4,030 bases of DNA from a virus. Its lineage: Duplodnaviria; Heunggongvirae; Uroviricota; Caudoviricetes. This document shows positions 12 through 4,030 of this stretch, one piece after another. The notes beneath the pieces were generated by a model that was not told the origin of the DNA, did no database searches, and saw nothing but the letters and a program-made list of their open reading frames with translations. The translations under genes and the position numbers were made by a program. Each line of letters opens with the position of its first letter. The first letter of the stretch is position 1. The stretch lies in the IMG/VR virus record IMGVR_UViG_2671180878_000023. One strand, given 5' to 3'.

Positions 12-49
12 ATAAAAAAAGCCAGCGCCCACTCTGAAGGACGCTGGCT
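12..49 (-). terminator. Rho-independent terminator oriented on the minus strand
   Basis: Seen in sequence: 8-bp arms AGCCAGCG (20-27) and CGCTGGCT (42-49) around a 14-nt loop. On the + strand an A-run (12-20) precedes the stem, so on the minus strand the hairpin is followed by TTTTTTTATT. No U-run follows it on the + strand. Confidence 0.45.
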
Positions 50-119
50 AAAACGGGTAGATGTACTTCACATGATACTTATATTTGGCAGTACATTTTC
101 TGACAGACAGTGACGGATG

Positions 120-736: not shown

Positions 737-1051
737 CTACCTGAGCTTTGGTGATAGTAAGTTGAAAATTCGCATTTTTTGCTGACATGCGTAACGAGAA
801 TCCCATAAGCAGGGAGGACTTAATTCTTCATTAACCCATGCGTTGATATTATGTTTCAGCCGTTGAAGCATCAGCGGTGTTAATGTTGTGGTAATAATAT
901 CCAGCGTTTTATGTGAGATCTTACCGTAAGGGTCTGCAAGAATGCTGCTTGTTGCTTCGTTATTATCTGCCATCAGAAGAAGTAACTCTGATTTAACGTT
1001 TTCTGTCATTAGTTGTAAAAATCTTCTGCGCAAACTTTCTTTACTGTTCAT
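737..1051 (-). CDS. Hypothetical protein (104 aa) on the opposite strand, inside an AT-rich insert between holin and endolysin; function unknown
   Basis: Only substantial ORF in the 687-bp holin-endolysin gap (482-1168); no + strand ORF of 60 aa or more there. Insert is about 37-40 percent GC against roughly 50 percent or more in the lysis genes. Codon usage is AT-biased (TTA, CTA, AGG). Shine-Dalgarno is weak (GAAG about 10 nt upstream). I recognise no family. C-terminal 25 residues look less protein-like. Confidence 0.5.
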   Translation of the reverse strand: MNSKESLRRRFLQLMTENVKSELLLLMADNNEATSSILADPYGKISHKTLDIITTTLTPLMLQRLKHNINAWVNEELSPPCLWDSRYACQQKMRIFNLLSPKLR

Positions 1052-1168: not shown

Positions 1169-1702
1169 ATGAACGAAAAAATAAAATACGGCCTGTCGGC
1201 TGCCGTTCTGGCGCTGATTGGTGCAGGTGCTTCTGCGCCTGAAATCCTCGACCAGTTTCTGGATGAAAAGGAAGGTAACCACACCACGGCATACCGTGAT
1301 GGTGCGGGGATCTGGACCATCTGCCGTGGTGCCATTCTGGTGGATGGTAAGCCTGTTATTCCTGGCATGAAGCTGTCAAAGGAAAAATGCGACCGGGTTA
1401 ATGCCATCGAACGTGACAAGGCGCTGGCATGGGTGGAGAAAAACATCAAAGTGCCGCTGACCGAACCCCAGAAAGCGGGGATCGCGTCATTCTGTCCGTA
1501 TAACATTGGCCCCGGTAAGTGTTTCCCGTCGACGTTTTATAAACGAATTAATGCAGGTGATCGAAAAGGTGCCTGCGAAGCGATTCGCTGGTGGATTAAG
1601 GACGGTGGCAGAGACTGCCGTATCCGCTCAAATAATTGCTACGGTCAGGTATCCCGGCGAGATCAGGAAAGTGCGCTGGCGTGCTGGGGTATCGACAGAT
1701 AA
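1169..1702 (+). CDS. R: SAR endolysin, T4-lysozyme-like muramidase (GH24), phage 21 R21-like, 177 aa
   Basis: N-terminal Gly/Ala-rich weakly hydrophobic segment YGLSAAVLALIGAGASAPEIL is typical of a signal-anchor-release domain. Catalytic spacing E-x8-D-x5-T is present (EGNHTTAYRDGAGIWT), as in T4 lysozyme and R21. C-terminal part resembles R21 (RINAGDRKGACEAIRWW versus KINQGDIKGACDQLRRW as recalled). An in-frame stop lies 9 nt upstream of the ATG. Confidence 0.93.
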   Translation: MNEKIKYGLSAAVLALIGAGASAPEILDQFLDEKEGNHTTAYRDGAGIWTICRGAILVDGKPVIPGMKLSKEKCDRVNAIERDKALAWVEKNIKVPLTEPQKAGIASFCPYNIGPGKCFPSTFYKRINAGDRKGACEAIRWWIKDGGRDCRIRSNNCYGQVSRRDQESALACWGIDR

Positions 1703-1791
1703 GCAGAATATTTTGCTTAAAAATGACGTTGGCCAACGCGGGCAGATAACACGAAATCCTGCGAACTGGCAAAACCCAAGTGAATAAAAGT

Positions 1792-1830
1792 AAAAACCCC
1801 GTTTGTTGGTTGCAAACGGGGTTTTATGTT
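1792..1830 (+). terminator. Intrinsic terminator (possibly bidirectional) between endolysin and spanin genes
   Basis: Seen in sequence: perfect 9-bp stem CCCCGTTTG (1797-1805) / CAAACGGGG (1813-1821), 7-nt loop, A-run upstream (1792-1796), TTTTATGTTT downstream (1822-1831). Confidence 0.6.
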
Positions 1831-1896
1831 TATGGCAGTAAGCTATGGGAGGCTGCCTTGATTGATTTTAGCAAACTGATTAGGGAGTTGCGACTC

Positions 1897-1971
1897 ATGA
1901 TTAGTCAATTACCAAACTGGAAATTTTTGCTGGTCTGGAGCATCCCTTTTTTATGGGTAGTATCCCAGTGA
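1897..1971 (+). CDS. Candidate small ORF, 24-aa Trp-rich hydrophobic peptide [24 protein letters not shown]
   Basis: ATG at 1897 preceded by AGGGAG (1882-1887) with 9-nt spacing. Very hydrophobic, 4 Trp in 24 residues. Not in the ORF track because it is short. It is the internal Met of the track ORF 1780-1971, whose GTG-started upstream part runs through the terminator hairpin. Confidence 0.25.
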
Positions 1972-1994
1972 ATTGTGGCAATTAAGGGGTAGCT

Positions 1995-2126
1995 ATGTCA
2001 GACAAACTCATAATGCTGGCGAAGATCCTCTGTGTAATCGTCGGCATTTCATTTTCACTAATGCTGGTTGCTCTTTTTCTTTCCATGGGCTGGATGATGT
2101 TGTCTTCGTCGGGGCTGCTGGGGTGA
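1995..2126 (+). CDS. Candidate small single-pass membrane protein, 43 aa ([43 protein letters not shown])
   Basis: ATG at 1995 preceded by AAGGGG (1984-1989) with 5-nt spacing. One clear hydrophobic helix (about residues 7-30). Its TGA (2124-2126) overlaps an in-frame GTG (2123-2125) of the Rz frame and ends 12 nt before Rz ATG 2138, suggesting translational coupling. Not in the ORF track (short). No family recognised. Confidence 0.45.
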
Positions 2127-2137
2127 GCATAAACCGA

Positions 2138-2596
2138 ATGCTTTCCGCGTTTACCGTTATTCTGCTGGTGGTCTGTGGTGCGCTTAGTCTGGGGCTGAAT
2201 CATTACCGCGATAACGCCATCACCTACAAAGCGCAGCGCGATAAAAAAGCCAGTGAGCTGGATCTGGCAAACGCAACCATTACTGATATGCAGGTGCGCC
2301 AGCGCGATGTTGCTGCGCTCGATGCAAAATACTCGAGGGAATTAGCCGATGCGAGAGCTGAAAATGAAACTCTGCGTGCTGATGTTGCCGCTGGTCGTAA
2401 GCGCCTGCGGATCAACGCCACCTGCCCCGGTACCGTGCGTGAAGCCACCGGCACCTCCGGCGTGGGCAATGATGCCGCCGTCGAACTCTCTCCGGTTGCT
2501 GGACGAAACGTTCTCGGTATCAGAGACGGAATCATCAGCGACCAGGCAGCATTGAGAATGCTTCAGGAATATATCCGCACTCAGTGTATTAACTAG
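2138..2596 (+). CDS. Rz: i-spanin Rz (inner-membrane spanin subunit), lambda Rz homolog
   Basis: From Met 2138: [36 protein letters not shown]...[29 protein letters not shown]...QCIN. N-terminal TMD then [16 protein letters not shown], a coiled-coil region, and a C-terminal Cys, all closely matching lambda Rz as recalled. Alternative start GTG 2123 would add a short basic cytoplasmic tail (SINR) like lambda's MSRVT. The track ORF 1973-2596 is an upstream extension with no homology. Confidence 0.92.
2349..2555 (+). CDS. Rz1: o-spanin Rz1 (outer-membrane lipoprotein spanin subunit), embedded in the +1 frame of Rz
   Basis: [44 protein letters not shown]... has a signal peptide with lipobox VSAC and a proline-rich mature region, matching lambda Rz1 (MLKLKMMLCVMMLPLVVVGC...CVKPPPPPAW as recalled). 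Lies wholly inside Rz in another frame. GAGGGA sits 8 nt upstream of ATG 2349; Met at 2364 is an alternative start. Confidence 0.85.
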
Positions 2597-2619: not shown

Positions 2620-2844
2620 ATGAAGAAATTATTGGTAACCGTAAAGCCTTTTCAGGGAACAATTCCGTTCCGTATTTTGCAGCGTGGTCGTGTTCTTGTT
2701 GAAGGTTCGTTCAGTGGTAAATGTACGCAATTACACTCCCGGACCTTTCAGGTGAATGCCACGAATGAAGAGCTAACCGTTGAGTGTACGATGAATGCCG
2801 CTAAATGCCGCATGGTATCCGCTGCATTACAGCCAGTGTGTTGA
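2620..2844 (+). CDS. Hypothetical small protein (74 aa, basic, 4 Cys) directly downstream of Rz; function unknown
   Basis: ATG 2620 preceded by GGAGAA (2611-2616), 23 nt after the Rz stop, same strand. Codon usage looks host-adapted (CGT, GGT, GTT, AAA, GAA). Sequence MKKLLVTVKPFQGTIPFRILQRGRVLVEGSFSGKCTQLHSRTFQVNATNEELTVECTMNAAKCRMVSAALQPVC has no lipobox and no evident TM segment, so it is not a Bor-like lipoprotein. The track start at 2602 is a TTG extension. Confidence 0.55.
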   Translation: MKKLLVTVKPFQGTIPFRILQRGRVLVEGSFSGKCTQLHSRTFQVNATNEELTVECTMNAAKCRMVSAALQPVC

Positions 2845-3105
2845 GCGACCTTATTATTCATGCGCGGTATTGTCGCCGTATTCCTGCATTAACAGAGACC
2901 GCAGCCCGACCGGGAGAATCCTCTGCGCGAGTGTGCGGGGATAATCAAAAACGATACACACCGGGGTTTACCGCGTTAACGGAGCGCGGCGTTGTCCCCT
3001 CATGGTCGCTGGTCCGGTGCGATGGTGGAAGAAGCCGGATGTTTATCACTATTAATTGATAACACAGAAATGGATTCATTGATTTTCAGCACGTTTTTGT
3101 ATTCG

Positions 3106-3149
3106 TATTATTGAACATCTGTTTATTTTACTTTTAACATATTGATAAT
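3106..3149 (+). promoter_or_regulatory. AT-rich candidate promoter region upstream of the 46-aa ORF
   Basis: Region 3060-3200 is very AT-rich and contains several near-consensus hexamers, for example TTGAAC (3111-3116) with TAACAT (3135-3140) at 18-nt spacing, and GATAAT (3144-3149). The exact promoter cannot be fixed by eye. Confidence 0.2.
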
Positions 3150-3200
3150 AAAAAGAGCTGTAAATCTTTAGATGAGTCGATTTTGTCCGGGGAAGTTCAA

Positions 3201-3341
3201 ATGGATTTTATGCTGACGGTTTCTGGTGTGGTTATCCTGTCCATTGCTTATACTGCAGATAAATATGGCTGCCATTTGTTATCACGTATTGGCGCTTATT
3301 GCTCGTTGATGCTGATTTTCTCGTCGCTTTTTTTTGAGTAA
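3201..3341 (+). CDS. Candidate small membrane protein, 46 aa (MDFMLTVSGVVILSIAYTADKYGCHLLSRIGAYCSLMLIFSSLFFE)
   Basis: ATG 3201 preceded by GGGGAAG (3189-3195) with 5-nt spacing. Two hydrophobic segments (about residues 3-17 and 33-45), two Cys, reasonable codon usage. Sits in an AT-rich island (3060-3370) with a promoter-like region upstream. Not in the ORF track (short). No family recognised; it does not resemble Hok as I recall it. Confidence 0.4.
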   Translation: MDFMLTVSGVVILSIAYTADKYGCHLLSRIGAYCSLMLIFSSLFFE

Positions 3342-3697: not shown

Positions 3698-4030
3698 ATG
3701 GCTGTGCTTCGTACGTTACCGGGCAGAATCAAAACTCTGAACACCCGGCGGGTGAATGTCCTGAAGGGTGAACAGCGTCGGGTCAGTGGTAGTGCCCGGG
3801 TTTCCCTCAAGCGTCGTATCTGGCTGAGGGATGCCGGACAGTGCTGTCTCTGTGGGCGTGTGGTTGACCTTTGTGACAGTGAACTTGAGCACCGCATTGC
3901 ACTTCAGTTCGGTGGTGGTAATGAGGAGACGAATCTCTGGACGCTCTGTACCGAATGCCATCGACAAAAGTCTGCTCGTGAAGCGGCGAGTGGTATGCCA
4001 GACCCGACGCTGCCGGAGGTGTCCGGAGGT
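3698..4030 (+). CDS. Phage HNH endonuclease (terminase-associated type), 3' end beyond the window
   Basis: ATG 3698 preceded by GGAGAGG (3684-3690). The frame is open to the window end (111 codons), which is why it is absent from the ORF track. Translation carries the HNH/zinc-finger signature: CCLCGRVVDL...ELEHRIALQFGGGNEETNLWTLCTECHRQK (C-x2-C ... H ... N ... C-x2-C-H). HNH genes of this type sit next to the terminase small subunit and cos in HK97-like phages. Confidence 0.88.
   Translation, partial: MAVLRTLPGRIKTLNTRRVNVLKGEQRRVSGSARVSLKRRIWLRDAGQCCLCGRVVDLCDSELEHRIALQFGGGNEETNLWTLCTECHRQKSAREAASGMPDPTLPEVSGG

What the first reader, a model, noticed from the sequence alone, without database searches (positions are those of the whole stretch)
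1703..2137. Terminator plus two tandem small hydrophobic ORFs between endolysin and Rz
A 435-bp segment lies where the endolysin and Rz normally abut or overlap. It holds a strong hairpin terminator (1792-1830), then two short ORFs with good Shine-Dalgarno sequences: a 24-aa Trp-rich peptide (1897-1971) and a 43-aa single-helix membrane protein (1995-2126). The 43-aa stop overlaps a GTG in the Rz frame (GTGA at 2123-2126), suggesting translational coupling into Rz. Small membrane proteins inside a pinholin/SAR-endolysin cassette could act as lysis modulators (antiholin-, releasin- or lysis-inhibitor-like) or as membrane toxins, but that is hypothesis. The terminator would uncouple Rz/Rz1 from upstream transcription unless antiterminated.
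Basis: partly seen in the sequence, partly recalled or inferred. Interest (0 to 1): 0.65.

Follow-up and report, generated by a model that had tools for sequence, protein, structure and literature searches.

The report
Small membrane-protein cassette before phage Rz
The gap between the endolysin and Rz genes of this E. coli prophage holds a conserved terminator hairpin and two real but uncharacterised small membrane-protein genes, and the first of them probably comes with a hidden ~70-base antisense RNA, which would make it resemble a toxin/antisense-RNA pair rather than a plain terminator plus ORFs.

Summary
Window 1703-2137 is a 435-bp insert between the SAR endolysin (1169-1702) and Rz (ATG 2138). 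The hairpin 1793-1825 is a real, bidirectional intrinsic terminator, conserved with compensatory changes in 14 cassettes from at least 10 genera.

The "24-aa" ORF is the tail of a conserved 44-45-aa single-pass membrane protein (phrog_6632). In this window it starts at TTG 1858 and is cut to 37 aa by a TTA->TGA nonsense codon. The family is clearly coding (pN/pS 0.32 in frame).

The 43-aa ORF (1995-2126, phrog_4906) is also under purifying selection. It is confined to E. coli/Shigella phages and sat directly before Rz in every locus examined.

The hairpin, leader and ORF-A move together as one cassette. It is found after five different endolysin families and also inside baseplate or tail modules.

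A sigma-70 promoter is predicted on the minus strand inside ORF-A codons 3-12. It is invariant at synonymous sites. It would make a ~67-70-nt antisense RNA covering the ORF's ribosome-binding site and ending at the same hairpin. A sister ORF family carries a 9-10/12 promoter at the same relative place.

The antisense RNA and the protein functions are inferences. No expression data exist, and no described family matches.

The parts
1169..1702 (+). Endolysin R (context). T4-lysozyme family with an N-terminal SAR-like hydrophobic segment.
   Evidence: PF00959 E=3e-24 and phrog_7 E=2e-62. PGAP annotates it as 'lysozyme'.
1703..1792 (+). Conserved 3' untranslated stretch after R. It is shared by all variants of the R-Rz gap and its role is unknown.
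   Evidence: 86-92% identical in the E. coli phages compared that otherwise differ downstream; homology to the ant-carrying phages stops at 1788-1797. About 74-76% identical to Salmonella phage SPN3UB.
1793..1825 (.). Bidirectional intrinsic terminator hairpin. The T-run extends to about 1836 on the + strand and to about 1786 on the - strand. It forms the left edge of the mobile cassette.
   Evidence: dG -21.5 and -18.4, z -5.1 and -4.8. Covariation in 14 cassettes. G-U pairs favour the + strand, but the core stem forms on both strands.
1826..1857 (+). Leader of ORF-A. The SD GGGAGG (1847-1852) lies in the loop of a 5-bp stem, GGCAG 1834-1838 with CTGCC 1853-1857.
   Evidence: Sequence. SD duplex dG -10.2. 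Relatives have a short stem of different sequence next to the SD, seen by eye in the alignment; this was not tested statistically.
1858..1971 (+). ORF-A: a 37-aa, nonsense-truncated allele of a 44-45-aa single-pass membrane protein family (phrog_6632). TTG start.
   Evidence: phrog_6632 E=3e-11. The 44-aa allele is P0078. Family pN/pS is 0.32 in frame and 0.79 / 1.76 out of frame; W21, W27, R43, W44 and W45 are invariant.
1897..1971 (+). It is the internal Met14 start of ORF-A and a possible second translation start.
   Evidence: Met14 is invariant in 14/14 sequences. The SD-like GGGAG (1883-1887) is built from codons R9-E10, whose degenerate sites do not vary. The second start is an inference.
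1865..1893 (-). Predicted sigma-70 promoter on the minus strand inside ORF-A codons 3-12: -35 TCGCAA (1893-1888), 17-nt spacer, extended -10 TGcTAAAAT (1873-1865).
   Evidence: Present at the same place in all 11 ORF-A cassettes scored. 0 of 7 degenerate sites inside the elements vary, against 19 of 23 outside (Fisher p=1.6e-4, post hoc). Not detected by the strict scan, because the -35 matches only 3/6.
1788..1858 (-). Predicted cis-antisense RNA of about 67-70 nt. Its 5' end is complementary to the ORF-A start codon and SD, and its 3' end is the terminator hairpin plus U-run.
   Evidence: Predicted length is 67-72 nt in 11 ORF-A cassettes and 68-94 nt in 4 sister cassettes. It folds into two hairpins, dG -25.5, z -5.7. 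No expression data.
1972..1992 (+). The six former sense codons (IVAIKG) and the TAG stop that follow the premature TGA (1969-1971, Leu38 in the 44-aa allele). The segment contains the SD of ORF-B.
   Evidence: Comparison with the 44-aa alleles P0077 and P0078 and with L008.
1995..2126 (+). ORF-B: 43-aa membrane protein with one predicted helix (phrog_4906). Found only in E. coli/Shigella lambdoid phages and directly 5' of Rz in every locus examined.
   Evidence: The best 19-aa Kyte-Doolittle window scores 2.89 (residues 11-29). Both positive charges are N-terminal; an N-in topology is inferred from that.
2138..2596 (+). Rz i-spanin, with Rz1 embedded at 2349-2555. It starts 11 nt after the ORF-B stop.
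   Evidence: PF03245 E=9e-40, PF06085 E=7e-21. PGAP start is 2138. The SD is weak and badly spaced.

Best explanation
The R-Rz gap is a recombination hotspot that collects small membrane-protein genes. In this window it holds two modules.

Module 1 (about 1789-1992) is a mobile cassette. It consists of a bidirectional terminator hairpin, a 32-nt leader with a strong SD, and ORF-A. ORF-A belongs to a 44-45-aa family with a basic amphipathic N-terminus, one transmembrane helix and a C-terminal RWW or AIKG tail. A constitutive-looking sigma-70 promoter on the opposite strand, buried in codons 3-12, is predicted to make a ~67-70-nt RNA. That RNA would be exactly antisense to the start codon and SD of ORF-A and would stop at the same hairpin.

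The inferred working is as follows. In the lysogen, the hairpin stops stray rightward transcripts and the antisense RNA blocks translation of whatever gets through. After induction, Q-modified polymerase reads through the hairpin and late mRNA outnumbers the antisense RNA, so the peptide is made late. This is the logic of P22 sar/ant and of type I toxin-antitoxin pairs.

The copy in this window has a weak TTG start and a premature stop that removes 7 residues. It may therefore be decaying, although its hairpin and predicted promoter are intact.

Module 2 is ORF-B, a 43-aa single-pass inner-membrane peptide. It is translated from its own SD, and its stop lies 11 nt before an Rz start that lacks a well-placed SD. 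ORF-B therefore probably delivers ribosomes to Rz/Rz1. Because its protein sequence is itself under selection, it probably also acts in the membrane alongside the lysis proteins.

Shown: the terminator, the coding status of both ORF families, the mosaic structure, and the mobility of the cassette. Inferred: the antisense RNA, translational coupling, and any toxic or lysis-related activity.
For: Terminator.

ORF-A coding: pN/pS is 0.32 in frame and 0.79 / 1.76 out of frame. R43 uses four different codons while W21, W27, W44 and W45 are invariant.

ORF-B coding: dN/dS is 0.27-0.50 in frame only. There are 206 protein clusters; every source name shown among the 120 listed is E. coli or Shigella. 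The order ORF-B > Rz holds in all 80 IMG/VR loci and in 933W-, YYZ-2008- and Sakai-type prophages, where ORF-B is coupled to ant by TGATG.

Cassette mobility: the same hairpin + leader + GTG-ORF unit occurs after T4-lysozyme-type, 138-aa, TIGR02594-like and GH19-like endolysins, and a sister ORF occurs after an M15 peptidase. It also lies between baseplate V and W genes and after tail genes. Genera include Escherichia, Salmonella, Citrobacter, Yersinia, Pantoea, Brenneria, Sodalis, Symbiopectobacterium, Providencia and Trabulsiella.

Mosaic joints relative to the window fall at 1788/1797, 1916/1938 and 1995.

Antisense promoter: TCGCAA-17-TGcTAAAAT is present in 11 of 11 cassettes scored. Degenerate sites inside the -35, TG and -10 elements vary at 0 of 7 positions, against 19 of 23 outside (p=1.6e-4). 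Spacer codons vary freely.

Independent sister family (PhiR5_2, GER2, Stx2k phage, Sakai Sp4; 51-60 aa, ending RWW or ALKS; same hairpin and leader): TAGTCA-18-TATACT or TGGACA-18-TATACT (9-10/12) sits at the same relative position. It was the only promoter-like hit in each of the three regions scanned, where 0.4-0.9 hits were expected. The Sakai Sp4 copy was read from the sequence and scored.

Precedents for antisense-oriented sRNAs that end at hairpins just behind late genes in these prophages: PasB, PasC and EcOnc33. Precedent for a prophage type I TA that aids lysis: hokW-sokW (PMC8621323).
Against: No transcript, ribosome or protein data were available for any element. The Hfq-CRAC list for Sakai contains no peak in the Sp4 R-Rz gap, although Sp4 carries the sister cassette. 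This is weak evidence, because cis-antisense RNAs need not bind Hfq.

The ORF-A-type -35 matches only 3/6, and the promoter test was designed after the invariant sites had been seen.

G-U pairs make the hairpin stronger on the + strand (alignment fold -18.1 against -13.0 kcal/mol). Plain termination of rightward transcripts could therefore be its main job.

No + strand promoter for ORF-A exists between the hairpin and the ORF. This departs from a classical type I TA, in which the toxin has its own promoter.

ORF-A in this window is truncated.

There is no homology to any known toxin, holin, antiholin, spanin or defence protein.
Confidence: 0.5

Rival explanations
1. The hairpin is only a rightward terminator after R, and the two peptides are dedicated lysis modulators (antiholin-, releasin- or spanin-regulator-like) of the pinholin/SAR-endolysin cassette.
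For: In lambdoid phages both ORF families sit directly before Rz with 1-14-nt gaps. ORF-B was seen nowhere else. The + strand hairpin is the more stable one. ORF-A has a conserved internal Met14 with its own SD, which recalls holin dual starts.
Against: ORF-A and its hairpin also occur between baseplate genes and after tail genes, with no lysis gene nearby. Each peptide has a single TM helix and no Pfam, PHROG or NCBIfam lysis annotation. The synonymous-site pattern and the 10/12 promoter in the sister family remain unexplained.
Confidence: 0.25
2. A classical type I toxin-antitoxin addiction or defence module. ORF-A-type peptides are membrane toxins and the antisense RNA is the antitoxin. The module stabilises the prophage or aborts infection by other phages.
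For: A small hydrophobic single-TM peptide. A predicted ~70-nt cis-antisense RNA over the ribosome-binding site. The cassette is highly mobile. A prophage type I TA, hokW-sokW, is known.
Against: No toxin promoter is found inside the cassette, and a terminator sits upstream of the toxin ORF. No similarity to Hok, Ldr, TisB, Ibs, ShoB or Zor families or to PADLOC models. The cassette always lies co-oriented inside late operons, which points to late-lytic expression rather than post-segregational killing.
Confidence: 0.2
3. The RNA is the functional product. The minus-strand sRNA, or a + strand RNA derived from the R 3' UTR (1703-1830), acts in trans like PasB, PasC or AgvB, or excludes related superinfecting phages like STnc6030. 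On this view the small ORFs are secondary.
For: Many validated sRNAs of these prophages have this orientation and terminator placement. STnc6030 is a precedent. The nucleotide sequence of the leader and 5' CDS is more conserved than the 3' CDS (pS 0.44 against 0.77).
Against: ORF-A is under clear protein-level selection along its whole length, including the part outside the predicted RNA. No Rfam family matches. There is no Hfq-CRAC peak in Sakai Sp4.
Confidence: 0.15
4. Recombination debris. The ORFs are non-functional leftovers of mosaic joints, kept only because they lie between essential genes.
For: ORF-A in this window has a TTG start and a premature stop. The gap content differs widely between phages. 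Close ORF-B relatives show dN/dS near 1.
Against: Frame-specific purifying selection acts on both families over larger distances. ORF-A is kept across at least 10 genera with saturated synonymous sites. The reading frame is preserved across the recombination joint at 1916-1938.
Confidence: 0.1

Closest known systems
Phage P22 sar RNA / ant (immunity I region)
   Same: A ~70-nt antisense RNA is transcribed from a promoter inside the 5' end of the target gene. It runs back over the ribosome-binding site and ends in the intercistronic region of a late-operon moron. P22 details are from my own knowledge of Liao et al. 1987 and Wu et al. 1987, which are listed in PMC2629481.
   Different: The target here is a 45-aa membrane peptide rather than an antirepressor. 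There is no sequence similarity. The RNA here is only predicted.
Type I toxin-antitoxin systems (hok/sok, including prophage hokW-sokW of Sp5)
   Same: A membrane peptide of under 60 aa paired with a predicted short cis-antisense RNA over its translation start, carried on a prophage. HokW is made on induction and helps phage release (PMC8621323).
   Different: No dedicated toxin promoter was found. A terminator lies upstream of the ORF. There is no homology to any known toxin family. Toxicity is untested.
Prophage late-region sRNAs PasB, PasC, PasA and EcOnc33/35/51/52
   Same: They are oriented against the late operon and end at a hairpin placed just behind the upstream late gene. PasB starts inside a small + strand ORF. 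A PasC homologue lies in this same window at about 14-92.
   Different: Those are validated, Hfq-bound, trans-acting sRNAs at other sites (after the esterase gene, after tail gene I). Their sequences are unrelated. None is reported in the R-Rz gap.
Small membrane lysis regulators (lambda S107 and S21-71 antiholins, T4 RI, P2 LysA, Mu releasin)
   Same: Small membrane proteins encoded inside lysis cassettes. P2 lysA also lies between the endolysin and spanin genes. ORF-A may have dual starts. These comparisons rest on my own knowledge.
   Different: No sequence or architectural match: one TM helix against 2-4, and no periplasmic domain. ORF-A also occurs outside lysis cassettes.
PHROG families phrog_6632, phrog_4906 and phrog_1115
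   Same: ORF-A, ORF-B and the sister 60-aa ORF match these families at E = 1e-11 to 1e-42.
   Different: All three are labelled 'unknown function'. PHROGs records only the proteins, not the hairpin, leader or antisense promoter.

Membership tests
Intrinsic (Rho-independent) terminator | G+C-rich stem-loop followed by a U-run | tested here: met
   13-14-bp stem with 6 G-C pairs, and T-runs on both strands. dG -21.5 and -18.4, z about -5.
Intrinsic (Rho-independent) terminator | Structure conserved by compensatory change in homologues | tested here: met
   96.4% of cells pair. 5 pairs and 17 cells have changes on both sides. 0 of 500 shuffles reach the covariation score, and slid controls pair at 34-68%.
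Intrinsic (Rho-independent) terminator | Stops transcription in vivo, and is read through by Q-modified polymerase | not testable with these tools
   Needs a reporter assay or Term-seq.
phrog_6632 (ORF-A family) | Significant profile match and shared architecture (basic N-terminus, W21, W27, TM helix, RWW or AIKG tail) | tested here: met
   E=3e-11 for 1780-1968 and 1.4e-13 for the 44-aa allele. Alignment. The window copy lacks the last 7 residues.
phrog_4906 (ORF-B family) | Significant profile match over the full length | tested here: met
   E=3e-21, residues 1-43 against profile positions 7-49.
Type I toxin-antitoxin system | Small hydrophobic membrane peptide | tested here: met
   Kyte-Doolittle 19-aa windows score 2.1-2.9, with one TM segment each.
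Type I toxin-antitoxin system | Antisense sRNA that pairs with the toxin mRNA | tested here: inconclusive
   The promoter plus terminator are predicted and conserved. There are no expression data, and no Hfq-CRAC peak in Sakai Sp4.
Type I toxin-antitoxin system | Toxin transcribed from its own promoter | tested here: not met
   No + strand promoter-like site lies between R and ORF-A, and a terminator sits directly upstream.
Type I toxin-antitoxin system | Homology to a known toxin family (Hok, Ldr, TisB, Ibs, ShoB, Zor, DinQ) | tested here: not met
   No Pfam, NCBIfam or PADLOC hit.
Type I toxin-antitoxin system | Toxicity on overexpression, relieved by the RNA | not testable with these tools
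   Requires an experiment.
Holin / antiholin (class II pinholin, PF04971) | Two or more TM domains, profile match, position upstream of the endolysin | tested here: not met
   ORF-A and ORF-B each have one TM segment, have no Pfam hit, and lie downstream of R. The true S21-type holin is at 275-481.
Spanin (Rz / Rz1 / u-spanin) | Periplasmic coiled-coil domain or a lipobox | tested here: not met
   Neither ORF has such a domain. Rz and Rz1 are separate genes at 2138-2596 and 2349-2555.
P22 sar-type antisense control | Opposite-strand promoter inside the 5' end of the target gene; a ~70-nt RNA over the ribosome-binding site; terminator in the upstream intergenic region | tested here: inconclusive
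   All three sequence features are present and conserved. The RNA has not been observed.
Rfam sRNA families (AgvB, AsxR, STnc100, IsrK, Sok and others) | Covariance-model match at or above the gathering score | tested here: not met
   The only hits in the cassette are sub-threshold: VR-RNA at 20 bits and rimP leader at 29-30 bits, with E = 0.25-0.46.

The most novel reading that the evidence does not exclude
A previously undescribed, widely mobile 'guarded peptide' cassette. It would consist of a 45-60-aa membrane protein with an RWW or AIKG tail (possibly made in long and short forms from dual starts) and a ~70-90-nt cis-antisense RNA over its ribosome-binding site. The antisense promoter would be hidden in the first 12 codons, and its terminator would double as a roadblock for rightward transcription. 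Phages of many enterobacterial genera would insert this unit into late operons, most often between endolysin and spanin genes. Its purpose would be to deliver a membrane-active peptide only late in infection, as a new accessory layer of lysis or envelope control, while keeping it silent in the lysogen. ORF-B would be a second, E. coli-specific accessory peptide tied to Rz.
Probability: 0.3. Interest if true: 0.7.

Novelty: new variant of a known kind. Interest (0 to 1): 0.5.

Why it matters
Lysis cassettes of lambdoid and Stx phages are treated as four-gene units (holin, endolysin, Rz, Rz1). Hundreds of E. coli and Stx phage genomes in fact carry one to three extra small membrane genes in the R-Rz gap. 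Most of these are unannotated or labelled 'hypothetical'.

If the antisense RNA is real, this is a compact and portable way of keeping a membrane peptide silent in lysogens and releasing it late. That would bear on Stx-phage lysis timing and toxin release, on small-protein annotation, and on the catalogue of prophage sRNAs in EHEC and EPEC.

Every step can be tested directly with a Northern blot, synonymous promoter mutations and inducible expression.

Tried and rejected
1. Known EHEC anti-sRNAs AgvB and AsxR. They lie upstream of the esterase gene, not in this gap, and there is no Rfam hit.

2. Hfq-CRAC peaks from Tree et al. 2014. EcOnc11 maps just downstream of Rz in Sp10. EcOnc33, 35 and 52 (and, by position relative to EcOnc10, EcOnc51) map to the 3' end of the esterase gene. 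None lies in an R-Rz gap.

3. The minus-strand promoter-like site at 2001..1972, at the ORF-B start. Its -10 is not conserved in L002, L008 or L009, judged by inspecting. I treat it as a chance match.

4. GTG 2123 as the Rz start. It is not conserved in frame.

5. An mRNA hairpin (GCAA with UUGC) as an alternative cause of the synonymous constraint. It would be lost in H-19B-type sequences, which have ATTCGA, and the + strand fold of 1826-1900 is unremarkable (z = -0.7).

6. Pfam, NCBIfam and PADLOC scans of all the small proteins gave nothing.

7. Literature searches for the accessions, PHROG ids, peptide strings and locus tags found no papers.

8. The search for homologous proteins for ORF-A reached only close relatives. 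The genome-contig scan supplied the diversity needed.

9. The per-strand hairpin and U-tail comparison was muddied by cut sequence ends. It was used only to show that both strands fold.
Full report
**Where the window comes from.** The window is a lambdoid prophage lysis region of E. coli. It is 100% identical to O26:H11 str. 11368 and to many O26, O103 and O111 genomes, except for a 28-bp stretch that the window lacks after position 189.

The genes are:
- an S21-type class II holin at 275-481;
- a minus-strand ORF at 737-1051 (phrog_1853);
- a T4-lysozyme-type endolysin with an N-terminal SAR-like segment at 1169-1702;
- Rz at 2138-2596, with Rz1 embedded at 2349-2555;
- further small ORFs, and an HNH endonuclease gene starting at 3699.

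**Checking the observation.** The 435-bp spacer 1703-2137 is real. In other prophages, such as Sakai Sp3, R and Rz overlap by 4 nt.

The hairpin at 1793-1825 is a strong intrinsic-terminator structure on both strands. dG is -21.5 and -18.4 kcal/mol, z is -5.1 and -4.8, and none of 200 shuffles folds as well.

The 43-aa ORF at 1995-2126 is as described. It has an SD (dG -8.4), a PGAP annotation (WP_001280927.1) and a full-length match to phrog_4906 (E=3e-21).

The '24-aa' ORF exists but is mis-delimited. Profile and tblastn matches extend upstream of ATG 1897. All 13 other aligned family members start at a GTG that aligns with TTG 1858. TTG 1858 follows the best SD of the region, GGGAGG at 1847-1852 (dG -10.2).

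The window's ORF-A is 37 aa. Other E. coli strains carry a 44-aa allele, [44 protein letters not shown], which has TTA where the window has TGA at 1969-1971.

GTG 2123 is in frame with Rz here. It is out of frame in YYZ-2008 and absent from H-19B and GER2-type phages, so ATG 2138 is the Rz start.

**Are the ORFs genes?**

*ORF-A.* Homologues were collected from phages H-19B, SPN3UB, SEN34 and pPE4, and from genomes of Trabulsiella, Citrobacter, Yersinia, Sodalis, Brenneria, Pantoea, Symbiopectobacterium and Providencia.
- Across 11 full-length members, pN/pS is 0.32 in frame and 0.79 and 1.76 in the other two frames.
- Synonymous sites in the C-terminal half are near saturation (pS 0.77).
- W21, W27, R43, W44 and W45 are invariant, and R43 uses four different codons.

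This is clear protein-level selection.

*ORF-B.* Divergent pairs (window group against the YYZ-2008/SH2026 group) give dN/dS of 0.27-0.50 in frame only.
- The family comprises 206 protein clusters. Every source name shown is E. coli or Shigella, and almost all read 'hypothetical protein'.
- In all 80 IMG/VR loci, and in every phage examined, it lies directly before Rz.
- In 933W-like phages it is coupled to the upstream ant gene by TGATG.

*Predicted protein form.* Both proteins have one strongly hydrophobic segment, with their positive charges on the N-terminal side. No Pfam, NCBIfam or PADLOC model matches either.

**The gap is a mosaic.** Homology to the ant-carrying Stx phages stops at 1788-1797 and resumes at 1995, or at 1916 in one lineage. 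Homology to H-19B, SPN3UB and the other ORF-A-type cassettes ends between 1931 and 1939.

In one Stx1a phage, ant is followed by three genes in a row. First comes a 31-aa ORF joined to ant by an ATGA overlap (MKMIKMDWKFLLVWLIPFLWVVARLITAIKR). Then come ORF-B and Rz.

The window's ORF-A is an in-frame recombinant. Its N-terminal part is of the H-19B/SPN3UB type and its tail comes from this short ORF; the joint lies in the shared WKFLLVW codons.

Other variants of the gap carry a 60-aa ORF (phrog_1115) before ORF-B (74 of the 80 closest IMG/VR loci), a 51-aa '...IRWW' ORF (GER2, Sakai Sp4), or three small ORFs in tandem (L001).

**The terminator belongs to a mobile unit.** All 14 ORF-A copies aligned have the same layout: a G+C hairpin with a U-run, then a leader of about 35 nt with an SD, then the start codon.

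The hairpin sequence changes while the pairing is kept:
- A-U is replaced by G-C in 6 of 14 sequences at one pair;
- 5 pairs and 17 cells have changes on both sides;
- 96.4% of cells pair, and 0 of 500 shuffles reach the covariation score;
- slid controls pair at only 34-68%.

The unit sits after endolysins of different families: T4-lysozyme-type, a 138-aa type, a TIGR02594-like type and a GH19-like type. The sister ORF sits after an M15 peptidase. The unit also lies between baseplate V and W genes and after tail genes. ORF-A is therefore not tied to lysis genes.

**A predicted antisense RNA.** The 5' part of ORF-A is unusually conserved at the nucleotide level. D3 is GAT, S5 is AGC and R12 is CGA in every sequence. 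Neighbouring codons, and R43, vary freely.

On the minus strand these invariant bases spell TCGCAA-17 nt-TGcTAAAAT, a sigma-70 promoter with an extended -10. In the window the -35 is at 1893-1888 and the -10 at 1870-1865.
- Of the synonymously degenerate sites in the first 27 codons, 0 of 7 inside the -35, TG and -10 elements vary.
- Outside those elements, 19 of 23 vary (Fisher one-sided p=1.6e-4). The test was designed after the pattern had been seen.

Transcription would start at about 1858. It would run over the start codon and SD and stop at the same hairpin, giving an RNA of 67-72 nt in all 11 cassettes scored.

There is independent support from the sister ORF family (PhiR5_2, GER2, Stx2k phage, Sakai Sp4). 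It shares the hairpin and leader but has a different N-terminus. The three phage regions were scanned without prior assumptions. In each, the only promoter-like hit was a minus-strand TAGTCA/TGGACA-18-TATACT (9-10/12) at the same relative position, where 0.4-0.9 hits were expected by chance. The Sakai Sp4 copy was read from the sequence and scored.

Two of the four invariant degenerate sites outside the promoter fall in an SD-like GGGAG. A second, shorter translation product is therefore possible.

**Evidence against, and limits.**
- No expression data could be consulted.
- The Hfq-CRAC catalogue for Sakai has no peak in the Sp4 R-Rz gap.
- No Rfam family matches.
- G-U pairs make the hairpin more stable on the + strand.
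- There is no + strand promoter for ORF-A, unlike classical type I TA loci.
- The ORF-A copy in the window is truncated.

**Most likely mechanism.**

*Shown:* a real bidirectional terminator; two selected small membrane-protein genes; a mosaic gap; and a hairpin-ORF cassette that moves between sites.

*Inferred:*
- In lysogens the hairpin blocks rightward read-through. A constitutive ~70-nt antisense RNA masks the ORF-A ribosome-binding site.
- After induction, Q-antiterminated late transcription reads through and titrates the RNA, so the peptide is made late.
- ORF-B is translated from its own SD. It hands ribosomes to Rz, whose ATG lies 11 nt downstream and has only a poorly spaced SD. Its conserved sequence suggests that it also has a membrane role of its own.

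This is the logic of P22 sar/ant and of type I TA pairs. A type I TA in prophage Sp5, hokW-sokW, has been shown to aid phage release (PMC8621323). Antisense-oriented sRNAs ending at hairpins behind late genes are common in these prophages, for example PasB, PasC and EcOnc33.

**Comparison with what is known, and novelty.** The proteins already exist in databases as 'hypothetical' (phrog_6632, phrog_4906, phrog_1115). No paper was found under the accessions, PHROG ids, peptide strings or locus tags searched.

Membership in holin, spanin, known type I toxin and Rfam sRNA families was tested and not met. The architecture resembles sar/ant and type I TA.

I rate it a new variant of a known kind, with moderate interest. 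The terminator and the coding status of the ORFs are well supported. The antisense RNA is a specific prediction that is cheap to test. The biological role remains open.

Noticed in passing
window 14-92, minus strand (terminator 49..20): A homologue of the validated EPEC sRNA PasC. The published Northern probe CGCTGGCTAAAACGGGTAGATGTAC matches window 42-66 exactly. The site is just after the SASA esterase gene, as in E2348/69, and is the same site class as Sakai EcOnc33/35/51/52.
   Followed up: partly
window 189/190: The window lacks 28 bp (GCCTGAATGCCATAATCACGGCTCCCGG). The otherwise identical complete genomes listed all span 4058 bp against the window's 4030, and the alignment to O26:H11 11368 shows the missing 28 bp. 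The missing stretch lies just upstream of a + strand terminator-like hairpin at 194-220, between PasC and the holin gene.
   Followed up: partly
window 1897 (Met14 of ORF-A) and SD-like GGGAG at 1883-1887: Met14 and the SD-like motif before it are conserved in all or nearly all family members, including at synonymous sites. The sister families also have an internal Met13 or Met14 preceded by GAGG. Sakai ECs_1094 is annotated from that Met. This suggests a possible dual-start arrangement giving long and short isoforms.
   Followed up: partly
window 737-1051, minus strand: A 104-aa ORF (phrog_1853, unknown function; PGAP calls a 90-aa version) is inserted in the opposite orientation between the holin and endolysin genes. 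The same arrangement occurs in Sakai Sp4.
   Followed up: no
window 3083-3341: A further small hydrophobic ORF (3201-3341, 46 aa; annotated by PGAP; no PHROG match). It is preceded by a promoter-like site, TTTTCA-17-TATTAT, at 3083-3111. This is a moron-like unit with its own promoter, unlike ORF-A and ORF-B.
   Followed up: no
window 2620-2844: A 74-aa ORF directly after Rz (phrog_2571, unknown function). In Sakai Sp10 the abundant Hfq-bound peak EcOnc11 lies about 74 nt downstream of Rz on the opposite strand. Whether the window has an equivalent was not checked.
   Followed up: no
L004 (Salmonella phage SPN3UB) 1236-1346: An unannotated 36-aa hydrophobic ORF (MSKRDVSALCFLMAAAVAISGNDGWGWLIFAGIIIL). 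Its ATG overlaps the annotated endolysin stop codon in an ATGA. It lies upstream of the conserved 3' UTR, hairpin and ORF-A.
   Followed up: no
L189 (E2348/69 PasB locus) 1462-1572: The validated 83-nt sRNA PasB has the layout predicted here. It follows a late gene (tail assembly I), ends at a hairpin just behind that gene, and starts about 40 nt inside a small + strand ORF (22 aa).
   Followed up: partly
L006 (Actinobacillus phage vB_Apl-pPE4) 1995-2132: Its ORF-A is 91% identical in protein to the E. coli H-19B copy and closely matches the Yersinia similis copy. This is unexpectedly close for a Pasteurellaceae phage. It suggests recent transfer or a host mis-assignment.
   Followed up: no
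L001 (phiSTEC1589-Stx1c) 2790-3060: This phage has the window's arrangement plus a third small ORF between ORF-B and Rz. The extra ORF is related to the C-terminal half of the 60-aa phrog_1115 protein. Up to three small membrane ORFs can therefore stack in the gap.
   Followed up: partly
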